A DNA stretch of 19,462 nucleotides from Candidatus Poribacteria bacterium (GTDB lineage: Bacteria; Poribacteria; WGA-4E; UBA9662). The notes beneath the pieces are model-generated. The model did no database searches. It was not told where the DNA came from and saw nothing but the letters and a program-made list of their open reading frames with translations. Below are positions 2,130 to 10,890 of this stretch, piece by piece. A program made the position numbers and the translations under genes. The DNA is taken from the NCBI GenBank assembly GCA_036339735.1, contig JAYZAL010000082.1, forward strand, positions 1 through 19,462, in the 5' to 3' direction. Each line of letters begins with the position of its first letter. The first letter of the stretch is position 1.

Positions 2130-3332
2130 TCATTCTTCTACAGGTATCGTGACTGTGACTTCGGCGCTGAAAATACCCTTGTAATCACCACGTTCCAAAA
2201 TCGTTTTTTCTATGACTGCCTTTCTACGTTCAACTTTTCCTTTGAAAAGAAGCTGATCTCTGAAATGAATCTCAACAGGTAATTCCAAGTCCAACATATC
2301 GTCATTCAATCTGACAGTTACAGTTGGTACTGTTGCGATTTTAATGTTAATTTTCTGTCCATTTCGTTCTGCTATAATCTGGCTTCTGCTTAGTATTGAC
2401 TCACCTTTGACAGCCAACCAATAAAACCGATTGTGTGTCACATTATCCTGCAACCAAATAACTCGACCGGGATATAGATTTCTCGTGTTTTCAGCCATCC
2501 AAGGAATTGCTACTTGATCTTCGCCTTGCATCCAGTGTCCCTTACCCCGGTATATCTGGACAAGATGTTTATAACCGTTGGGATCCTTCTCCTGAAGTCT
2601 TCCAAGCAATTTTTTCCATGTTTCTGCCATTTGGTTCCGGTTGTAGGCACTATCCATAGCTCCCATATGAAGAGTGAAAGCTGTATTACGAAGGTTATCG
2701 GGCTTTGAATCATTAGGATGGCCTGCCATGACTGCTACTCCAGCCCAACGGTCAGCCATACGCGGGCCAAGTTGGTAAGTTCCGTCACCACCCGCAGAAT
2801 AGCCCATTATATACACTCGGTTTGGGTCAACGTTTTCCAATACAATTAAATTTTCAATTAGACGGCTCAGAAATTTATCTACATGCGCCTGATGCCACAT
2901 ATTCCAACTGTTGGTTGGGGCGCGTGGTACAAGGTAAATACCCTCACTTATTTGGTATAGATTTTTTTGATTCTCCCACTGTTGATCATTTATCTCTTCT
3001 GGTACTCCTCCACCGCCATGCAGTGAAATATACAAGCTATGTCCTGTCTCGGGCTTGTCTCCGTAAACTTGATACCAAAAGGGCATTTCCACGTTGTCCA
3101 ACTTCAACTTTCTAGATTCCATCTCAGGCTGACGTGTTAATTCAATTTCTTTGCAGTGTAAATCCCAAAGTTCGGCTGTAATTATATCAGCTTGTTTTTT
3201 TGTCAATGCCTCGTTAGAGGCGTTCTCTACATCATTGTTTGCTTTAGTGACTGATAAATGAGTTGATAACATGATTAGTGAAGCTAATAAGATTGATACT
3301 GGTTTAGGTTGCCTTAAACAGAATATGATCAT
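2130..3332 (-). CDS. Secreted alpha/beta-hydrolase (esterase/PHB-depolymerase-like)
   Basis: 400 aa. Signal-peptide-like N-terminus, oxyanion LHGGGG, nucleophile elbow VDPNRVYIMGYSAGG, acid in MGAMD and His in GKGHWM. AAGGA Shine-Dalgarno upstream. Confidence 0.85.
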   Translation of the reverse strand: MIIFCLRQPKPVSILLASLIMLSTHLSVTKANNDVENASNEALTKKQADIITAELWDLHCKEIELTRQPEMESRKLKLDNVEMPFWYQVYGDKPETGHSLYISLHGGGGVPEEINDQQWENQKNLYQISEGIYLVPRAPTNSWNMWHQAHVDKFLSRLIENLIVLENVDPNRVYIMGYSAGGDGTYQLGPRMADRWAGVAVMAGHPNDSKPDNLRNTAFTLHMGAMDSAYNRNQMAETWKKLLGRLQEKDPNGYKHLVQIYRGKGHWMQGEDQVAIPWMAENTRNLYPGRVIWLQDNVTHNRFYWLAVKGESILSRSQIIAERNGQKINIKIATVPTVTVRLNDDMLDLELPVEIHFRDQLLFKGKVERRKAVIEKTILERGDYKGIFSAEVTVTIPVEE

Positions 3333-4832: not shown

Positions 4833-5891
4833 CTAGTTTAAGCGGCTTGCAACATACACTAGCCCACCGACTTCGACTTGATCAAATAAGGTGATAATGT
4901 CGTCATTTATCATTCGAATACAACCTTGAGAGGTTGGCTGGCCGATCATTTTTTCATTGGTTGTACCATGAATATAGATGCGGCGTGCTAGCGTATCAAC
5001 ATCTCCGCCCTTGTTTTTTCCCTCTTCTAGGCCAGTTAATTTTATGATACGAGTAGTTATGATATCGTTGACTTTTGGGTCAGCCAATTCATAGTCCCAG
5101 AGATTGGTTTGAATTTTTTCAGTCAAGAAGCCGCCTTCAAATACGGACCCCTTTGGCGCAGTAGATCCGACCTTGGCGTAAATCTGGTGTCTACCAATTG
5201 GTGTTTGAAAGGAGTCTCGCAGATTTCCGGTGCCGGCCCTAGCGGTTGATACAAGGTACTGATCCAAAACTTGCTGTTGTTTCAGTAACCATAAACACTG
5301 CTGGGATACATCGACAACTAAATAAGCTTTATCTTTAGCTTGAAGATGTAATTTTTTCTGGTCGATAAATTGCTTTAGTCTGTCAACCGATTCTATTTTT
5401 CTCTCTTCATCTGTAACAGTTCTACTTTGTTCAGTTTTGATAGTAATCTGGGGTGGGGTAACTACTGGTATCTGAGCTGAATCAGTTTGACTCAATGTTG
5501 CTTCAGGTAATAAATTTTGATCGTTAGATATTAGCTGCTCAGGCTGATCAGCCGAACTCAAATCTTTTAATATTTGGGTTCGGCCAAGTAAAACTGCTTC
5601 TGCTAACAAACCCATACTAACACAGACCAGTACTAACCTCCGATGTCGAGTCACATCAAGATACGAAAAATAGAAAGAACTAAAGACATTGACTGCACTA
5701 TAAACCCAGATAAAAGGGAATATGATCTTGCATATAGCTGATAAGAATCTTAGCTGTTCGTTTTGAAAAATGATTGGTAACAATGCCAAAACTGTTAATA
5801 AGATAAGGTCGATTCCTTTACTTATTTGGCGTGTCATCAATTGACCTATACCAGGTATCAGCAAAAAGAGGATTTTGAATATACCAAACAT
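4833..5891 (-). CDS. Membrane-anchored L,D-transpeptidase (YkuD family)
   Basis: C-terminal YkuD domain: LVVDVSQQCLWL, YLVST, TPIG and IYIHGT...TSQGCIRM (HxxxxxxxxxxxxSxGC catalytic motif). N-terminus has 3-4 hydrophobic segments and a Pro/Gln/Thr-rich linker. The start was moved from 5936 to the ATG at 5891, which avoids overlap and lies 1 nt after the upstream stop. Confidence 0.88.
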   Translation of the reverse strand: MFGIFKILFLLIPGIGQLMTRQISKGIDLILLTVLALLPIIFQNEQLRFLSAICKIIFPFIWVYSAVNVFSSFYFSYLDVTRHRRLVLVCVSMGLLAEAVLLGRTQILKDLSSADQPEQLISNDQNLLPEATLSQTDSAQIPVVTPPQITIKTEQSRTVTDEERKIESVDRLKQFIDQKKLHLQAKDKAYLVVDVSQQCLWLLKQQQVLDQYLVSTARAGTGNLRDSFQTPIGRHQIYAKVGSTAPKGSVFEGGFLTEKIQTNLWDYELADPKVNDIITTRIIKLTGLEEGKNKGGDVDTLARRIYIHGTTNEKMIGQPTSQGCIRMINDDIITLFDQVEVGGLVYVASRLN

Positions 5892-5892
5892 C

Positions 5893-6705
5893 TCAAATGT
5901 AACGAGCCACTGCAAATGATTGCCATCTAGCATCAAACCAGAACCGGCGACCGGTTTTATCTACCACACTCTCAGCTTTCCCGTAAAAAGCTAGCCAATC
6001 ATCAAAGGCAATTATATTATCATTAAGAGTCAAATCGGAAAATGGGTTATTCCATCGGTGAAGAGACCCACCGGCTAAAGTATACGACTGTCGCATGATA
6101 TGATTGACAAATTCTAGAAACATGTCATCAATAACTTCAGTTGCGGGTAAAAAGGGATTAATTCCATACTGGCCGCAAATCTCAGCGCGCAGATAGTTAC
6201 CAACTCCGTTAAAATAACGTTGATCCATTAGCAATTCAGAGATCGGTTTTTGGAAGATTGTTTTCTCTATATGATCATAAATATGAGACTTAAAATCATC
6301 AAATTGGTCTACAGGGTCGGGGCCACGATAATCAGCCCAGGGGCGAAAATCTCCCTTGCCAAATCTTCGAACATCAACAAAGACTAAGCTCGTTTGATCT
6401 TCGAAAACAAAGTGTGCGTGGCTATGTTTCGGTGAGCCTTCACCTTTTCGTAAGTGTACAAATTCTCCACTCATACCCAATGTGATTGTATATTGGTCAT
6501 TTGTATTGATAATTGAGGAAGAGCGGCGGAAAAACAAAGCAAGCTCTTTGCCTCTTGATTTAGCTGAAATGACAAAAGGCAGTATCAACTGATCTAATGA
6601 CTTCAGTTTGAGGTAAGGTGAAAAGTGGAGGGATGTTACTGTCTTTCCCTCTGAAGTGTGGTTAATAAAGTCACCGGTAATTCTGACTTCAGCCCATTCT
6701 GGCAT
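5893..6705 (-). CDS. Fpg/Nei (H2TH) DNA glycosylase/AP lyase, NEIL1-like with zincless finger
   Basis: 270 aa. N-terminal MPE..E catalytic motif, SRGKEL, LGMSG, FVDVRRFG and the H2TH segment LLMDQRYFNGVGNYLRAEI. No Cys4 zinc finger; the C-terminus is WLAFYG...DKTGRRFWF. Confidence 0.93.
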   Translation of the reverse strand: MPEWAEVRITGDFINHTSEGKTVTSLHFSPYLKLKSLDQLILPFVISAKSRGKELALFFRRSSSIINTNDQYTITLGMSGEFVHLRKGEGSPKHSHAHFVFEDQTSLVFVDVRRFGKGDFRPWADYRGPDPVDQFDDFKSHIYDHIEKTIFQKPISELLMDQRYFNGVGNYLRAEICGQYGINPFLPATEVIDDMFLEFVNHIMRQSYTLAGGSLHRWNNPFSDLTLNDNIIAFDDWLAFYGKAESVVDKTGRRFWFDARWQSFAVARYI

Positions 6706-6737
6706 TTGCTATTTACTCATCTAGTCTTCATGGCATG

Positions 6738-6766
6738 TTGCGTCTATGGTTGACTCCAAGTATACT
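6738..6766 (+). promoter_or_regulatory. Putative sigma70 promoter for the THUMP methyltransferase
   Basis: TTGCGT (6738-6743), 17-bp spacer, TATACT (6761-6766). Confidence 0.6.
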
Positions 6767-6787
6767 AACTGAACCGTTGAACGTCAA
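6759..6787 (-). promoter_or_regulatory. Putative sigma70 promoter for the glycosylase / L,D-transpeptidase operon
   Basis: On the minus strand: TTGACG (6787-6782), 17-bp spacer, TATACT (6764-6759). Confidence 0.7.
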
Positions 6788-6823
6788 TTAACGGTCAATA
6801 TATGGTTAATTCCGAGTCAGGTT

Positions 6824-7963
6824 ATGTATTCCTACCAAAAGAATAGTCGATATTTCGCTCAAGTTGCTGATGATACCAAGGAGTTAGCTGCAACTGAACT
6901 CAGAAATCTTGGAGCTAAAAGTGTTGATTTAACTTACAAAGGTATTTATTTTAATGCTAATCAAAAGGATCTGTACCGAATTAATTTACAGGCATCCTTA
7001 GTACATAGAGTTTTGGCGCCATTGCTGACCTTCGACTGTCATTCTGATCGTTATTTATACAAGACTGCCCGTCAAATACGATGGCTAGATTTCTTGACTA
7101 GTTTCCAAACTTTTGCTATTTTCTCGACTGTTTCTGATAGTAAAATTAGTCACTCTAAATTTGCATCTTTACGCCTTAAAGATGCTATTGTCGATTATTT
7201 TCGTTCCATCACTGGCTTACGCCCATCGGTGGATACTAAAAAACCGGATTTATGGCTAAACCTACGGATCCACAGAAATCGAGCGACTATCAGTGTTGAT
7301 ACTTCGGGTGGTTCTTTGCATCAGCGACGTTATCGAAAGGAAAGTGTGGAAGCTCCAATGATCGAAACTCTAGCTGCGGCACTGCTAAAGGCCTCAGGTT
7401 GGGATCAATCTCAACCATTATACGATCCATTTTGTGGCTCGGGCACTTTACTATGTGAGGCTTACCTGCAAGCAACTGGTACTCCAGCAAATGGGCTCCG
7501 AGCGCTTTTCGGTTTTGAACGCTTACCAGACTTCGACCCTGGGATATGGAAAGAGGTTCAAAAAGAATGCCATAAAAAACAAAGAGCAGTCAGGGATGGA
7601 CTGATCGCTGGTAGCGATATCTCTCAAAAAGCTGTTGCCACAGCTAGGCGGAATACTAATATCTTGACTGCCGACAGACGAATTTCAGTTCAGCAGAAAG
7701 ATGTGTTCCATCTGAATAAGCTACAAGGTCAATTCATTATTACTAATCCACCTTATGGTATCCGATTAGGTCGTTCGGAAGACCTTTCTCATTTCTACCA
7801 GCAGCTAGGTGATTTTCTAAAAAAACAATGTCAAGGTGCAACCGCCTGCATCTATTTTGGTGATCGAAAATATATTAAGCACATCGGTCTTCGTTCTAGC
7901 TGGAAAAAACCATTTACTAATGGAGGCCTTGATGGTCGATTAGTCAAATATGAACTATACTGA
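6824..7963 (+). CDS. THUMP-domain class I SAM-dependent RNA methyltransferase (RlmL/YpsC-like, probable 23S rRNA m2G)
   Basis: 379 aa. THUMP region (LKDAIVDYFR...RPSVD), DTSGGSLHQRRYR, APMIETLAAA, DPFCGSGTLLCEA, NPPYG and NGGLDGRL. Confidence 0.92.
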   Translation: MYSYQKNSRYFAQVADDTKELAATELRNLGAKSVDLTYKGIYFNANQKDLYRINLQASLVHRVLAPLLTFDCHSDRYLYKTARQIRWLDFLTSFQTFAIFSTVSDSKISHSKFASLRLKDAIVDYFRSITGLRPSVDTKKPDLWLNLRIHRNRATISVDTSGGSLHQRRYRKESVEAPMIETLAAALLKASGWDQSQPLYDPFCGSGTLLCEAYLQATGTPANGLRALFGFERLPDFDPGIWKEVQKECHKKQRAVRDGLIAGSDISQKAVATARRNTNILTADRRISVQQKDVFHLNKLQGQFIITNPPYGIRLGRSEDLSHFYQQLGDFLKKQCQGATACIYFGDRKYIKHIGLRSSWKKPFTNGGLDGRLVKYELY

Positions 7964-8078: not shown

Positions 8079-9449
8079 ATGAATATTATTTATATCCATT
8101 CTCACGATACAGGACGATATGTTCAACCGTATGGACACTCTATCCCAACACCAAACATCCAGAAACTAGCAGAGGAAGGGGTCCTTTTTCGGCAAGCTTT
8201 TTGTGCTAACCCCACTTGTTCACCCAGCCGGGCCTGCTTATTGTCTGGTCAGTGGGCTCATACGGCTGGTATGGGTGGTCTTGTCAATCGCGGTTGGAGT
8301 TTGCCAACTCCCAAAAATTTAATTATGCATACTTTAGCTGAAGCAGGTTATGAAACCGTTTTAGCTGGTTTTCAACATGTGGTAAAAGATGTCAACGAGG
8401 CAGGTTATAGTCGAAATTTAGCCAAGGAGACCACATTTTCAGGTGAAACTGAAGAACGAGCTGCAACCTTCATAGCTGAAGCCTCCAAAAGTGATAATCA
8501 GCCCTTTTTTCTTGATGTTGGATTTTTTGAAACTCACCGCGCTCGTTCAGTAAAGCCAGGTGGTTTTGCACCTCAACCTAATGGCGAGGCAAAAACTGAT
8601 CCTCGTTATGTTAAGCCTCCAGCACCATTTCCTGACACACCTGAAACACGTCAGGACATGGCTGATTATATTGACGCAGCTCGAACATTAGACCAGAAAA
8701 TGGGTGTTGTATTTTCAGCTCTGGAAGAAAATAAGTTAGCTGATAAAACACTAGTTATTTGCACTACTGACCATGGCCTAGCATTTCCTGAAATGAAATC
8801 TCGTTTAACTGATCACGGAATCGGTATCATGCTTATCATGAGAGGGCCAGCTGATTTTAGTGGAGGTCTAGTAATAGACGAATTGGTTAGTCAGATTGAT
8901 CTATTCCCTACCATTTGTGATATTCTTAATATTGATCATCCCAAATGGTTACAAGGGCATTCAATTGTACCTCTGTTACAAGGTACAACCGATAAGATTA
9001 GGTCCGAGATTTTTGCTGAGGTTAACTACCATTGCTGCTATGAACCACAAAGAGCAATAAGAACAAAACGCTGGAAATATATTCGACGATACGATCAAGC
9101 ACCGAATTGGGCAATGCCTAATTGCGACGATAGTATTAGCAAAACTTTTTTCTTAGATCACGGCTGGCAAGAACATCGGCCAGAACCTGAACGACTGTAT
9201 GACCTCGTTTTTGACCCTTTTGAGCGGCATAATCTAATCTCCAGTGGGCAAGCAGATGAACAGGTATTGCAATCAATGCGGCAGCGGTTGGAAGACTGGC
9301 GTATTGAAACTAAGGATCCAACTCTAGAACATCCAATAGTGCCGTTTCCAGAAACGGCTGTGTTGAATAAGTACGATGCTGTTTCGCCGAACGATGAAGA
9401 ATACCCGGCGAGTCAATTCCTACAAGAAATGACTGATCGCGCCACCTAG
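8079..9449 (+). CDS. Formylglycine-dependent (Cys-type) sulfatase, N-sulfoglucosamine sulfohydrolase-like
   Basis: 456 aa. NIIYIHSHD, TPNI..LA.EG..F, CSPSRACLLSG (CxPxR), TTDHG, VSQIDLFPT and LYDL..DP.E..NL. No signal peptide. Confidence 0.93.
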   Translation: MNIIYIHSHDTGRYVQPYGHSIPTPNIQKLAEEGVLFRQAFCANPTCSPSRACLLSGQWAHTAGMGGLVNRGWSLPTPKNLIMHTLAEAGYETVLAGFQHVVKDVNEAGYSRNLAKETTFSGETEERAATFIAEASKSDNQPFFLDVGFFETHRARSVKPGGFAPQPNGEAKTDPRYVKPPAPFPDTPETRQDMADYIDAARTLDQKMGVVFSALEENKLADKTLVICTTDHGLAFPEMKSRLTDHGIGIMLIMRGPADFSGGLVIDELVSQIDLFPTICDILNIDHPKWLQGHSIVPLLQGTTDKIRSEIFAEVNYHCCYEPQRAIRTKRWKYIRRYDQAPNWAMPNCDDSISKTFFLDHGWQEHRPEPERLYDLVFDPFERHNLISSGQADEQVLQSMRQRLEDWRIETKDPTLEHPIVPFPETAVLNKYDAVSPNDEEYPASQFLQEMTDRAT

Positions 9450-9459
9450 GTACTTTTCA

Positions 9460-10890
9460 ATGTCTATCAAACAACCTAATATTGTTCTGATTATGACCGA
9501 TCAGCAGAGGTTTGATAGTATCTCTGCGCTTGGTTTCCCTTATGCAGATACACCAAATCTGGATCGATTAGTTCATGAAGGTGTAAATTTATCACAGTGT
9601 TATATTACGGCCCCCTCTTGTGCTCCGGCACGTGCCAGTTTGTTCACGGGCTACTATCCTCACACAACTGGTATTCTCAAAAACGCAGATAGGTGGACAC
9701 GCTCTTGGGTAGAACGATTGAGTAATGTTGGTTATCATTGTGTCAATATAGGAAAAATGCACACTTTTCCTTTTGAAACACCATTAGGTTTTGATGAGCG
9801 TTACGTGGTAGAAAATAAGGACCGGTACCTGGAAGGCCGCTACTATTTTGATGAGTGGGATAAGGCTTTACAAGCCAGAGGTCTAATTAAACAACAACGT
9901 GAACTATATCGCCAACGGTCCGACTACCATGAGCGGTTGGGTGCTTTTGAATGGGAATTGCCGGAGGATATGCATCCAGATGTGTTTGTTGGAAATTTAG
10001 CACAATGGTGGATTAATAACTACCCAGTTACACAACCATTGTTCTTACAGATAGGTTTTCCTGGTCCACACCCACCATATGATCCGACTTGGGAATATGC
10101 CCAACCGTATATGGAACGAGAATTACCGTTGCCAGTTGTGACAGAGATGGAATTGGCTAATCAACCCGCCCCGTTTTTGGAGATGCGTCAGCACAACTGT
10201 GAAGTAGACCATGACTCTGTCGTTCATCAGCTTAATCCCACGACTGAACAGTTACACCGACAACGAGCTTACTATTTGGCCAACGTTACAATGATCGATC
10301 ACCAAATCGGTAAAATCCTGCAAACTTTAGAACACCAAGGATATCTGGATAATTCGGTTGTCATCTTTACTTCTGATCACGGGGACTGTTTAGGTGATCA
10401 CGGACACAGCCAGAAATGGACCATGTACGATATCATCACTCGAGTGCCAACAATTGTATGGTCTCCAAGTCGTTTTGAGGGTGGTCAAACAATTGATGGA
10501 CTTTGTCAACAAATGGATCTGGGTCCTGCTATTCTCGAATTAGCCGGTGCTGACGTACCTACAACTATTGAAGCTAAGTCAATTTTACCAGCCTTAGCAG
10601 GTCAGAAATGGACGGCTAGAGAGTACGTTTTTGCCGAACATGGGAAAGATGGTATTTTACAAGGCACTGAGTTTATGTCGATGGTCAGAAGTCAAGACTG
10701 GAAACTCGTTCATTTTCTTGACCAACCTGATGGACAATTGTTTGACCTAAAAGCGGACCCAGCTGAAATCAACAATCTGTGGTCTCACAGTCAGTTCAGT
10801 TACAAAAGGCAAGAGTTATTAAATGTATTAAGAGAATGGCGAATTCGAAGTCAATATGAGACATCTGGTTGGGCCGCTGAATGGAGATAG
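9460..10890 (+). CDS. Formylglycine-dependent (Cys-type) sulfatase, choline-sulfatase/arylsulfatase-like
   Basis: 476 aa. PNIVLIMTDQQR, CAPARASLFTG (CxPxR), GKMH, PHPPY, FTSDHG and LFDL..DP.E..NL. Confidence 0.93.
   Translation: MSIKQPNIVLIMTDQQRFDSISALGFPYADTPNLDRLVHEGVNLSQCYITAPSCAPARASLFTGYYPHTTGILKNADRWTRSWVERLSNVGYHCVNIGKMHTFPFETPLGFDERYVVENKDRYLEGRYYFDEWDKALQARGLIKQQRELYRQRSDYHERLGAFEWELPEDMHPDVFVGNLAQWWINNYPVTQPLFLQIGFPGPHPPYDPTWEYAQPYMERELPLPVVTEMELANQPAPFLEMRQHNCEVDHDSVVHQLNPTTEQLHRQRAYYLANVTMIDHQIGKILQTLEHQGYLDNSVVIFTSDHGDCLGDHGHSQKWTMYDIITRVPTIVWSPSRFEGGQTIDGLCQQMDLGPAILELAGADVPTTIEAKSILPALAGQKWTAREYVFAEHGKDGILQGTEFMSMVRSQDWKLVHFLDQPDGQLFDLKADPAEINNLWSHSQFSYKRQELLNVLREWRIRSQYETSGWAAEWR

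What the first reader, a model, noticed from the sequence alone, without database searches (positions are those of the whole stretch)
5893..6705. Bacterial chromosomal glycosylase that looks like animal NEIL1 (zincless finger)
Seen: the protein lacks the four-Cys zinc finger of bacterial Fpg/Nei. Compared with human NEIL1 motifs recalled from memory, it is collinear throughout (this protein / NEIL1): ISAKSRGKEL / ISASARGKEL; LGMSGEF / FGMSGSF; PKHSHAHF / PRHAHLRF; FVDVRRFG / FVDIRRFG; RGPD / RGPC; FQKPISELLMDQRYFNGVGNYLRAEI / FDRPICEALLDQRFFNGIGNYLRAEI; AFDDWLAFYG...DKTGRRFWF / AFRAWLRCYG...DRHGRTIWF (zincless finger with its conserved Arg, 5932-5997). It lacks the long disordered NEIL1 tail, and the lesion-recognition loop differs (LAGGSLH vs LGGKGY). 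Established: NEIL1-type zincless enzymes are known mainly from metazoans and giant viruses. Inference: a bacterial NEIL1 clade, relevant to the origin of NEIL1 or to inter-domain or viral transfer. The gene is intronless, sits among bacterial genes and has a sigma70 promoter, so contamination is unlikely.
Basis: partly seen in the sequence, partly recalled or inferred. Interest (0 to 1): 0.85.

Follow-up and report, generated by a model that had tools for sequence, protein, structure and literature searches.

The report
NEIL1-like DNA glycosylase in Poribacteria
A marine bacterium carries an intact, conserved copy of a DNA-repair enzyme type known from animals (NEIL1), and its nearest relatives are a large family in ocean T4-like phages and a few other marine bacteria that I could not find described in print.

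Summary
ORF 5893-6705 (-) encodes a 270-aa Fpg/Nei glycosylase with no Cys4 zinc finger. Its best solved relative is human NEIL1 (97 bits, against about 32 for Fpg, Nei and Mimivirus Nei1; family profile 229 against 71 bits). The AlphaFold model matches NEIL1 best (Z 26.4, against 22.7 for MutM).

The gene is bacterial. The contig is collinear with three other Poribacteria-type assemblies, dN/dS is about 0.11, and the neighbours are housekeeping genes.

It is not an isolated bacterial copy of the animal enzyme. It belongs to a compact (250-295 aa) NEIL1-like family. That family has 366 relatives in IMG/VR, on T4-like myophage contigs, and 533 in metagenomes. A few sit in bacterial chromosomes, one of them a Marinimicrobia type.

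In the tree the Poribacteria clade sits next to a T4-like phage lineage plus those bacterial copies. Eukaryote NEIL1 forms a separate clade. AU tests leave the deep order unresolved.

The lesion-recognition loop resembles that of phage copies and Fpg, not NEIL1, and there is no disordered tail. The apparent second copy in this genome lies on a contig that is probably mis-binned. Seven literature searches found no paper describing this family.

The parts
5893..6705 (-). CDS of the 270-aa NEIL1-like bifunctional DNA glycosylase/AP lyase
   Evidence: ORF; PF01149 at 57.8 bits against a cut-off of 25.5; human NEIL1 6.6e-27; model pLDDT 88.6
6688..6702 (-). Codons for Pro2, Glu3 and Glu6: the N-terminal nucleophile and catalytic acids
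   Evidence: P2, E3 and E6 are invariant in 29 family members and align to NEIL1 Pro2/Glu3/Glu6. Their roles in hNEIL1 come from passages of PMC10164570
6355..6705 (-). N-terminal beta-sandwich domain (residues 1-117), holding K53, M78, R113, R114 and F115
   Evidence: PF01149 covers residues 1-117. K53, M78, R113 and F115 align to NEIL1 Lys54, Met81, Arg118 and Phe120 (roles)
6115..6324 (-). Helix-two-turn-helix DNA-binding domain (residues 128-197), including the FNGVGNYLRAEI stretch
   Evidence: PF06831 at 26.9 bits, below the 34.7 cut-off, but aligned in full to NEIL1 and helical in the model
6007..6075 (-). Putative lesion-recognition loop (residues 211-233, AGGSLHRWNNPFS...). It is of the phage/Fpg type, not the NEIL1 type
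   Evidence: pLDDT 61-67 here. The motif GG.L..W.NPF is shared with phage copies, and E. coli MutM has GGTTLKDF at the same place, whereas eukaryote NEIL1 has G(K/G)GY
5932..5997 (-). Zincless finger (residues 237-258), with Y241 and the conserved Arg253
   Evidence: Beta-hairpin 245-248/254-257. R253 is invariant and aligns to NEIL1 R277; Y241 aligns to Y263. No Cys. PF09292 scores only 14.5 bits against a 25 cut-off, but the family profile aligns this part to NEIL1 215-282 at 28.7 bits
6759..6787 (-). Promoter-like site TTGACG-17-TATACT in the 118-bp divergent intergenic region
   Evidence: Consensus scan, 10 of 12 matches; not above chance for the region
4833..5933 (-). Downstream co-oriented L,D-transpeptidase (YkuD) gene that overlaps the glycosylase 3' end by 41 nt. 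This is context and a likely co-transcript
   Evidence: PF03734; ORF coordinates in L001 show the same 41-nt overlap (5001-5813 and 5773-6873)

Best explanation
The gene encodes a functional bifunctional DNA glycosylase/AP lyase of the Fpg/Nei (H2TH) superfamily. It belongs to a compact, tail-less NEIL1-like subfamily. Inferred mechanism, by homology to hNEIL1: after the initiator Met is removed, the Pro2 amine attacks C1' of a flipped-out oxidised base. Glu3 protonates O4' and Glu6 assists. M78, R113 and F115 fill the gap in the helix. K53, R114, R127, Y241 and R253 (in the zincless finger) hold the backbone. Beta,delta-elimination leaves a one-nucleotide gap. It appears to be the only H2TH glycosylase native to this Poribacteria genome, alongside Nth, MutY and an AlkA-like enzyme, so it probably takes the Fpg/Nei role: oxidised pyrimidines, Fapy lesions and hydantoins, with 8-oxoG uncertain. 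Evolutionary reading: the gene entered the ancestor of one Poribacteria family by horizontal transfer from a gene pool shared by marine T4-like phages and a few marine bacteria. It has since been inherited vertically under purifying selection. Identity, fold, conserved residues, synteny, selection and family distribution are shown. Enzyme activity, substrates and the direction of transfer are inferred.
For: Identity: PF01149 at 57.8 bits. Human NEIL1 scores 97 bits against about 32 for Fpg, Nei and MvNei1. The family profile scores 229 against 71 bits, and the finger region aligns. The model has pLDDT 88.6. The Foldseek top 50 are all NEIL1, TM 0.79. VIA gives Z 26.4, rmsd 2.9 and 254 aligned residues for NEIL1, against 22.7 for MutM and 21.2 for MvNei1. 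Catalytic and DNA-contact residues are invariant in 29 relatives and map onto hNEIL1 residues whose roles are given in PMC10164570. Bacterial and vertical: the order YkuD, glycosylase, RlmL-type MTase and two sulfatases is collinear in the window, L001, L002 and L003. Identities fall in step with the neighbours. dN/dS is 0.11. No PADLOC hit to the glycosylase. Only H2TH gene: searches found two hits, and the second is on contig C9, which looks foreign. Nth, MutY and an AlkA-like enzyme are present. Distribution: 18 of 121 Poribacteria genomes have PF01149. The NEIL1-like form occurs only in family f1; f2 and f3 hold Cys4 Fpg, and 0 of 82 f4 genomes have any. Family: 366 of 397 IMG/VR stretches and 533 of 596 metagenome stretches. 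T4 capsid Gp23 is in 8 of 10 viral records and T4 portal in 5 of 5. Tree: Poribacteria clade 100/99; joined to phage L043/P0057 at 99/96. With three bacterial-context copies added, those three plus the phage pair form the sister group (SH-aLRT 94).
Against: No biochemical data exist, so activity and substrates are inferred. PF09292 and PF06831 are below Pfam's cut-offs for this protein. The lesion loop lacks the NEIL1 Lys242/Tyr244 arrangement, so the substrate range may differ. The deep branches are weak, and the bootstrap had not settled. The AU test does not reject Poribacteria plus eukaryote NEIL1 as one clade (p 0.337), and it does not reject all prokaryote and phage forms as one clade (p 0.347). 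The direction of transfer, phage to bacterium or the reverse, is not determined. The window is a whole 19.5-kb MAG contig, and this bin holds at least one foreign contig. I could not scan the species genomes with a profile, so the true bacterial range is unknown.
Confidence: 0.78

Rival explanations
1. The Poribacteria gene is the direct sister of eukaryote NEIL1. That would mean an inter-domain transfer, for example between an animal host and a symbiont lineage, rather than membership of the phage/bacterial pool.
For: The AU test does not reject a clade of Poribacteria plus eukaryote sequences (delta lnL 11.7, p 0.337). Identity to invertebrate NEIL1 (34-40%) is close to the identity to phage copies (36-45%).
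Against: The best careful tree joins Poribacteria to phage L043/P0057 at 99/96 and keeps eukaryotes as a separate 100/99 clade. Bit scores to phage and bacterial copies are 130-214, against 100-120 for eukaryote copies. Poribacteria share the GG.L..W.NPF loop, the FWF..KW C-terminus and the short length with the phage and bacterial forms, not the G(K/G)GY loop or the GP..PK tail of eukaryotes.
Confidence: 0.08
2. The direction is reversed. The family is anciently bacterial, in Poribacteria, Marinimicrobia and others, and T4-like phages captured it from their hosts, possibly several times.
For: The immediate sister group of the Poribacteria clade mixes three chromosomal bacterial-context copies with one phage lineage. 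One of those clusters carries NCBI names from Candidatus Marinimicrobia MAGs. Phages commonly pick up host repair genes (general knowledge).
Against: Most of the sequence diversity sampled lies on phage-type contigs: Atlas clusters are 63-100% viral, and 34 of 48 metagenome loci with 5 or more flanking ORFs share at least half of those ORFs with IMG/VR phage flanks. Within Poribacteria the gene is confined to one family, while other families have Cys4 Fpg or none. The root is not resolved, so this evidence is only suggestive.
Confidence: 0.3
3. It is an ordinary bacterial Fpg/Nei that lost its zinc finger independently and only resembles NEIL1 by convergence.
For: The Fpg/Nei fold is shared by all clades (MutM Z 22.7). 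The start of the lesion loop resembles E. coli MutM. Zincless fingers are thought to have arisen more than once (PMC3188539 passages).
Against: There is a 65-bit gap with the single sequence and a 158-bit gap with the profile between NEIL1 and the best Fpg/Nei. NCBIfam Fpg and Nei equivalog models score 70 and 51 bits against cut-offs of 212 and 252. All 159 NEIL1-like rows separate from zinc-finger rows at SH-aLRT 95, and at 100/99 in the careful tree.
Confidence: 0.03
4. The contig is contamination, eukaryotic or viral DNA binned with a bacterium, or the gene lies in a prophage.
For: The window is a complete short MAG contig, and the same bin holds a probably foreign contig, C9.
Against: All ten neighbouring ORFs tested have ordinary cellular Pfam domains or none, and no phage genes. 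Gene order and identities match a 95-kb contig of a MAG titled Candidatus Poribacteria and two further assemblies. GC is even across the window.
Confidence: 0.02

Closest known systems
Metazoan NEIL1 (human NEIL1, PDB 1TDH, 5ITT, 6LW* series)
   Same: Best sequence match (97 bits; profile 229 bits) and best structural match (Z 26.4, TM 0.79). It shares Pro2/Glu3/Glu6, Lys54, the Met81/Arg118/Phe120 triad, the H2TH stretch, and a zincless beta-hairpin with Tyr263 and Arg277 equivalents.
   Different: No roughly 100-residue disordered C-terminal tail. The lesion-recognition loop lacks the Gly-Gly-Lys242-Gly-Tyr244 arrangement and carries GGSLHRWNNPF instead. A short conserved C-terminal helix with a K/R-W motif follows the finger. 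In the tree it falls outside the eukaryote clade. Identity is only about 30%.
Compact NEIL1-like proteins of uncultured T4-like phages and some marine bacteria (labelled 'endonuclease VIII-like 1' by JGI; no paper found)
   Same: Same length class (250-295 aa), same loop motif and same C-terminal FWF..KW. Identity 36-45%, 130-214 bits. Tree neighbours.
   Different: The Poribacteria copies form their own clade, with no intermediates between 59% and 45% identity. They are chromosomal and syntenic rather than in phage replication or repair modules. 57 of the 120 listed relatives (my count) carry a precomputed PF09292 hit; the six Poribacteria-type clusters do not.
Mimivirus Nei1 (MvNei1, PDB 3A45/3A46)
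   Same: A viral, zincless Fpg/Nei enzyme regarded as a NEIL1 counterpart (PMC3188539 passages). Same fold (Z 21.2).
   Different: Much more distant from this protein than human NEIL1 is: 31.8 against 97 bits, and 68.6 against 229 bits with the profile. The viral carriers here are tailed phages, not giant viruses.
Bacterial Fpg/MutM and Nei (E. coli, L. lactis, G. stearothermophilus)
   Same: Same superfamily, fold and N-terminal Pro-Glu chemistry. The start of the lesion loop (GG..L.D/W) resembles MutM.
   Different: No Cys4 zinc finger. Equivalog models score far below their cut-offs. Separated in the tree at 100/99.
Plant/fungal zincless Fpg (A. thaliana Fpg, PDB 3TWK)
   Same: A zincless finger on an Fpg/Nei core.
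   Different: Weak match: 23.9 bits with the single sequence and 65.7 with the profile. That finger is thought to have a separate origin from the NEIL1 finger (PMC3188539 passage).

Membership tests
Fpg/Nei (H2TH) DNA glycosylase superfamily | N-terminal Pro2 nucleophile and Glu3 directly after the initiator Met | tested here: met
   The protein starts MPEWAEV. P2, E3 and E6 are invariant in 29 relatives
Fpg/Nei (H2TH) DNA glycosylase superfamily | N-terminal beta-sandwich domain (PF01149) above the curated cut-off | tested here: met
   57.8 bits against 25.5, residues 1-117
Fpg/Nei (H2TH) DNA glycosylase superfamily | H2TH domain (PF06831) | tested here: inconclusive
   26.9 bits, below the 34.7 cut-off. 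The region does align in full to NEIL1, and the whole model superposes on NEIL1, MutM and Nei-type chains
Fpg/Nei (H2TH) DNA glycosylase superfamily | C-terminal beta-hairpin finger contributing one conserved Arg | tested here: met
   Hairpin 245-248/254-257. R253 is invariant and aligns to NEIL1 R277. The role of the finger Arg comes from a PMC9266487 passage
Fpg/Nei (H2TH) DNA glycosylase superfamily | Glycosylase and beta/delta-lyase activity | not testable with these tools
   Needs an enzyme assay
NEIL1 subfamily | Closer to NEIL1 than to any other Fpg/Nei clade | tested here: met
   97 against 32 bits; 229 against 71 bits with the profile; Z 26.4 against 22.7
NEIL1 subfamily | Zincless finger (PF09292, no zinc ligands) | tested here: inconclusive
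   No Cys in the last 50 residues. PF09292 scores only 14.5 bits against a 25 cut-off. The family profile aligns the region to NEIL1 215-282 at 28.7 bits, E 7.8e-6
NEIL1 subfamily | Void-filling triad Met81/Arg118/Phe120 and backbone contacts Lys54, Arg119, Arg133, Tyr263 | tested here: met
   M78, R113, F115, K53, R114, R127 and Y241 align to them. All but R113 (V112 is nearly invariant instead) appear in the invariant list. Roles come from PMC10164570 passages
NEIL1 subfamily | Lesion-recognition loop 240-252 with Lys/Arg242 and Tyr244 | tested here: not met
   The loop reads AGGSLHRWNNPFS and is shared with phage copies. Eukaryote copies have G(K/G)GY
NEIL1 subfamily | Long disordered C-terminal interaction tail | tested here: not met
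   The protein ends 12 residues after the finger hairpin's last strand (residue 257). Eukaryote copies run to 354-686 aa
NEIL1 subfamily | Falls inside the clade of eukaryote NEIL1 sequences | tested here: not met
   The eukaryote clade (100/99) excludes it. A sister position is not rejected (p 0.337)
Canonical bacterial Fpg (MutM) / Nei | Cys4 zinc finger, and a score above the NCBIfam equivalog cut-off | tested here: not met
   No Cys4. 70.2 against 212, 65.3 against 203.3 and 50.7 against 252 bits
Plant/fungal zincless Fpg | Closest similarity to that clade | tested here: not met
   3TWK scores 23.9 bits and 65.7 bits with the profile, far below NEIL1
Anti-phage defence glycosylases (PADLOC models) | Match to a known defence-system protein model | tested here: not met
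   No PADLOC family at E 0.01 or better

The most novel reading that the evidence does not exclude
Animal and other eukaryote NEIL1 may descend from this compact zincless family of marine T4-like phages and bacteria. In the tree rooted on zinc-finger Fpg/Nei, the eukaryote clade sits inside the phage/bacterial radiation. The prokaryotic forms also keep an Fpg-like loop start, which would make them intermediate between Fpg and NEIL1. If so, the zincless finger arose in the phage/bacterial world, and NEIL1 reached eukaryotes by transfer, later gaining its loop and tail.
Probability: 0.3. Interest if true: 0.8.

Novelty: new variant of a known kind. Interest (0 to 1): 0.62.

Why it matters
In the papers I could read, the NEIL1 clade of Fpg/Nei glycosylases is treated as metazoan, with Mimivirus counterparts (PMC3188539). 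Here the same enzyme type appears as a domesticated chromosomal gene in one Poribacteria family. It also appears as a very large family in uncultured aquatic T4-like phages, and in at least one other bacterial phylum.

This gives DNA-repair researchers small, tail-less, probably easily expressed NEIL1-like enzymes. They could be used to dissect the zincless finger and the lesion loop.

It suggests that large aquatic phages commonly carry their own base-excision repair, often beside a ligase, helicase, SSB or UvsX.

It also makes the origin of eukaryote NEIL1 a question that phylogeny can test.

Tried and rejected
- **Cultured phages.** A tblastn search of 50,697 records gave 16 hits, all at 23-35% identity and of ordinary Fpg type, so the family is not in cultured phages. 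PHROGs gave only a weak hit to an unannotated family, phrog_21295.
- **Giant-virus origin.** The NCLDV capsid model found nothing in 5 of 5 records. The control rang nowhere, so this negative is weak by itself. The T4 capsid and portal hits settle the virus type.
- **Two paralogs in one genome.** This was my first reading and I dropped it. The second copy lies on the 8.9-kb contig C9. Its PhoH is 95% identical to genome G135 but only 65% to G131. G000 also holds a second PhoH at 66%. The window's RlmL is 97% identical to G131 and is single-copy. Each of the five other genomes tested has one copy.
- **AU tests.** Neither the Poribacteria plus eukaryote clade (p 0.337) nor a clade of all prokaryote and phage rows (p 0.347) is rejected, so the deep order stays open.
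- **Naming the organism behind bacterial-context locus L161.** I searched with its FMO neighbour. The nearest named proteins are only 51-54% identical (Bacteroidota, Legionella), so there is no assignment.
- **T4 capsid search in metagenome records.** Those records are not held.
- **Species-genome scan.** The bacterial range across all species genomes is therefore untested.
- **Closed or missing sources.** The Doublie 2004 paper is not held. Two other papers did not give the NEIL1 residue roles; PMC10164570 did.
- **Literature.** Seven full-text searches found no description of a bacterial or tailed-phage NEIL1 clade. Subscription journals and supplements were not searchable, and supplementary sequence lists of Fpg/Nei phylogenies could hold such sequences.
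- **Defence role.** PADLOC gave no hit to the glycosylase.
Full report
**1. The observation**

The window holds an ATG-started ORF at 5893-6705 on the minus strand, 270 aa, beginning MPEWAEV.

- Pfam finds the Fpg/Nei N-terminal domain above its cut-off (PF01149, 57.8 against 25.5 bits).
- The H2TH domain (26.9 against 34.7) and the NEIL1 zincless-finger model (PF09292, 14.5 against 25) fall below theirs.
- NCBIfam's Fpg and Nei equivalog models score 50-70 bits against cut-offs of 203-252.
- Against all PDB sequences, the 15 best rows are human NEIL1 (E 6.6e-27 to 5.7e-26, 95-98 bits). The next are Fpg, Mimivirus Nei1 and E. coli Nei at about E 1e-6, 30-32 bits.

The last 50 residues have no Cys. 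Only the promoter remark is weak: there are 6 promoter-like sites against 4.0 +/- 1.8 in shuffles, although the best one (TTGACG-17-TATACT, 6787-6759) lies in the right intergenic spot.

**2. Is it bacterial?**

The window is the whole contig C82 of a 4.32-Mb, 107-contig assembly (92% complete, 2.4% contaminated). Ten neighbouring ORFs were tested. They encode methyltransferases, a glyoxalase, an oxidoreductase, a YkuD L,D-transpeptidase, a THUMP/RlmL-type methyltransferase, two sulfatases, an aminotransferase and a glutamate-5-kinase-like protein; one has no Pfam match. None is a phage gene.

A scan of species genomes found five relatives. Four sit in MAGs titled Candidatus Poribacteria and one in an 'uncultured bacterium' (95, 80, 72, 60 and 59% identity). 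In L001, L002 and L003 the gene order is YkuD, glycosylase, RlmL-type MTase, sulfatase, sulfatase, the same as in the window. The glycosylase's identity (95/80/72%) tracks that of its neighbours. dN/dS is 0.11 for these orthologues. Contamination and a prophage origin are therefore excluded.

**3. One copy per genome, not two**

The assembly has a second hit on contig C9 (8.9 kb, 60% identical). I first read this as a paralog, but three results argue against it.

- C9's PhoH is 95% identical to genome G135 and 65% to G131.
- The assembly also holds another PhoH at 66%.
- The window's RlmL is 97% identical to G131, 61% to G135, and single-copy.

Each of five related genomes has exactly one copy: type A in G131-G133 and type B in G134-G135. 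G058 and G069 also have one each, of type B. C9 is therefore probably a mis-binned contig from a sister genus.

Types A and B lie at different loci. They are about as diverged (59-60%) as housekeeping genes of the two lineages (60-66%). This fits one acquisition in the family's ancestor followed by rearrangement.

With C9 set aside, the window gene is the only H2TH glycosylase found in the genome. Nth, MutY and an AlkA-like enzyme are present.

Across 121 Poribacteria genomes, 18 have PF01149:

- the NEIL1-like form occurs only in family f1;
- genera g6 (family f2) and g4 (family f3) carry roughly 285-aa Cys4 zinc-finger forms;
- 0 of 82 genomes in f4 have any.

**4. What family is it?**

A word-indexed search of 5.8 billion proteins gave 887 hits. 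After six Poribacteria-type clusters (59-95%), everything is 36-45% identical and 250-300 aa long. By my count, 57 of the 120 listed carry a precomputed PF09292 hit, and many carry the JGI name 'endonuclease VIII-like 1'.

The exhaustive HMMER search of 1.84 billion representatives gave 72 clusters at E 1e-30 or better and 334 at 1e-10 or better. From about 1e-29 onward, longer proteins (354-686 aa) appear. Some of these are named NEIL1 of a tardigrade, a snail, a coral and an oyster.

The ESM Atlas reports the nearest clusters as 63-100% viral, most commonly Uroviricota.

In IMG/VR, 366 of 397 pattern matches encode relatives, on contigs up to 318 kb. Of ten viral records tested, eight have a T4-type major capsid (Gp23); the two without are 45% and 10% complete. 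Five of five have a T4 portal, and none of five has an NCLDV capsid.

In the phages the gene sits in DNA-metabolism modules. In L009 it lies between a UvrD-like helicase and ATP-dependent ligase on one side and an ATP-grasp protein on the other. In L043 it lies upstream of a gp32-like SSB, UvsX and an exonuclease. Cultured phages lack the family.

**5. Other bacteria**

Eight of the best 80 are Poribacteria-type (59-100%), and the rest are at 44% or below.

Of the 48 non-Poribacteria loci with at least five flanking ORFs:

- 34 share at least half of those ORFs with IMG/VR phage flanks (some are the same contigs);
- 9 share fewer;
- 5 share none.

Three of those five were checked with Pfam. 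They carry cellular genes: Lon protease and DNA photolyase (L191); a TPP enzyme, a flavin monooxygenase and DUF2207 (L161); an aminotransferase, a Ctp peptidase and a luciferase-like oxidoreductase (L156).

The 90% cluster of the L191 protein includes NCBI entries from Candidatus Marinimicrobia/Neomarinimicrobiota MAGs, named 'DNA-formamidopyrimidine glycosylase family protein'. So at least one more bacterial phylum carries the family on its chromosome.

**6. Trees**

- **Quick tree** (163 rows, 277 columns). It includes all representatives of 240 aa or more except P0001, nine Poribacteria rows, twelve IMG/VR rows, the oyster NEIL1 (P0358), E. coli MutM and Nei, and two Cys4 Poribacteria Fpg. 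All 159 NEIL1-like rows separate from the zinc-finger rows (SH-aLRT 95). Poribacteria form one clade (99), and so do 45 eukaryote-type rows (99).
- **Careful tree** (88 rows). I dropped twelve long-branch rows, 27 of the eukaryote-clade rows, the L098 row (identical to L005) and most 'short_other' rows, keeping 36 chosen across clades. Poribacteria score 100/99 and eukaryotes 100/99. Poribacteria plus the phage pair L043/P0057 score 99/96. The backbone is weak, and the bootstrap had not settled.
- **With the three bacterial-context proteins added.** They group together (93), join L043/P0057 (100), and that five-row group is sister to Poribacteria (94).
- **AU tests.** They do not reject Poribacteria plus eukaryotes as one clade (p 0.337). 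They also do not reject all prokaryote and phage rows as one clade (p 0.347).

Discrete characters side with the phage/bacterial affinity: the GG.L..W.NPF loop, the FWF..KW C-terminus and the short length. Eukaryote copies instead have G(K/G)GY and a GP..PK-type extension. E. coli MutM has GGTTLKDF at the loop start.

**7. Structure and mechanism**

AlphaFold2 on the 29-row alignment gives pLDDT 88.6 and pTM 0.86. It shows a beta-sandwich, a helical H2TH region, a low-confidence loop at 211-233, a beta-hairpin at 245-257 and a final helix.

The Foldseek top 50 are all human NEIL1 (TM 0.79). VIA-align gives NEIL1 Z 26.4 (rmsd 2.9, 254 residues). MutM scores 22.7 and MvNei1 21.2.

The family profile hits NEIL1 at 7e-67 (229 bits) in two stretches, the second covering the finger. 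L. lactis Fpg scores 71 bits, MvNei1 69, A. thaliana Fpg 66 and E. coli Nei 40.

P2, E3, E6, K53, M78, R114, F115, R127, Y241 and R253 are invariant in the alignment. With R113, they align to hNEIL1 Pro2, Glu3, Glu6, Lys54, Met81, Arg118/119, Phe120, Arg133, Tyr263 and Arg277. The roles of those residues are given in passages of PMC10164570 and PMC9266487.

I therefore infer a Pro2-Schiff-base glycosylase/beta,delta-lyase acting on oxidised bases. The different loop leaves substrate range open, 8-oxoG in particular.

**8. Comparison with what is known, and novelty**

Passages of PMC3188539 list nine Fpg/Nei clades. NEIL1 is metazoan only, with Mimivirus enzymes alongside, and the plant/fungal zincless finger is treated as a separate origin. 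PMC8307549 treats H2TH glycosylases as bacterial/eukaryotic.

Seven full-text searches found no paper on a bacterial or tailed-phage NEIL1 clade. Subscription papers and supplements could not be searched. Automatic labels do exist (the JGI name and Pfam hits).

I class the gene as a new variant of a known kind. It is a compact NEIL1-like subfamily that meets the catalytic and finger criteria but lacks the NEIL1 loop and tail. It lives in phages and a few marine bacteria.

**9. Verdict**

The finding is real and its core interpretation is supported. The gene is a vertically inherited Poribacteria gene drawn from a phage/bacterial NEIL1-like pool. The direction of transfer and the relation to eukaryote NEIL1 remain unresolved.

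Noticed in passing
G000 contig C9 (L111, 1-8895): This 8.9-kb contig of the window's assembly looks mis-binned. Its PhoH is 95% identical to another genus (G135), and the assembly holds a second PhoH at 66% on C100. The contig carries the type-B NEIL1-like gene next to YbeY, PhoH and a SAM hydrolase.
   Followed up: yes
A1 alignment, C-termini of P0009, P0014, P0030, P0099, P0100, P0119: A subset of the phage-type homologues ends in a conserved tail, W(D/C)(H/Y)YSG(L/M)P(N/S)P.AY, that is absent from the Poribacteria copies. It may be a protein-docking motif, for example for a clamp or another replication protein.
   Followed up: no
L191:5714-8765; L009:1477-6825; L043:6001-12599: The homologues sit in repair or replication neighbourhoods. 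In the Marinimicrobia-type contig a DNA photolyase lies two genes upstream. In phage L009 a UvrD-like helicase and an ATP-dependent DNA ligase lie upstream. In phage L043 a gp32-like SSB, UvsX and an exonuclease lie downstream.
   Followed up: partly
L100 (G044:C1:7708-8073) and L103 (G012:C1:2324300-2324530): In two closed Poribacteria genomes of genus g4, the canonical Fpg match carries in-frame stops (1 TAG; 2 TAA). Together with 0 of 82 hits in family f4, this suggests that Fpg is being lost in parts of the phylum.
   Followed up: no
window 5893-5933: The glycosylase 3' end and the ATG of the downstream YkuD gene overlap by 41 nt. The L001 ORF coordinates show the same overlap, which suggests co-transcription or translational coupling.
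   Followed up: partly
window 2130-3332 (-): A 400-aa ORF with no Pfam or PADLOC match, conserved at 92% in L001 and 76% in L002.
   Followed up: no
window 8079-10890 (+): Two tandem sulfatase genes, only 23-25% identical to each other, are conserved in all three related assemblies.
   Followed up: no
window 6824-7963 (+): The THUMP/RlmL-type methyltransferase gives a weak PADLOC hit to 'mad2' (2.1e-10) and to type II MTase models. This is most likely generic methyltransferase-fold similarity.
   Followed up: no
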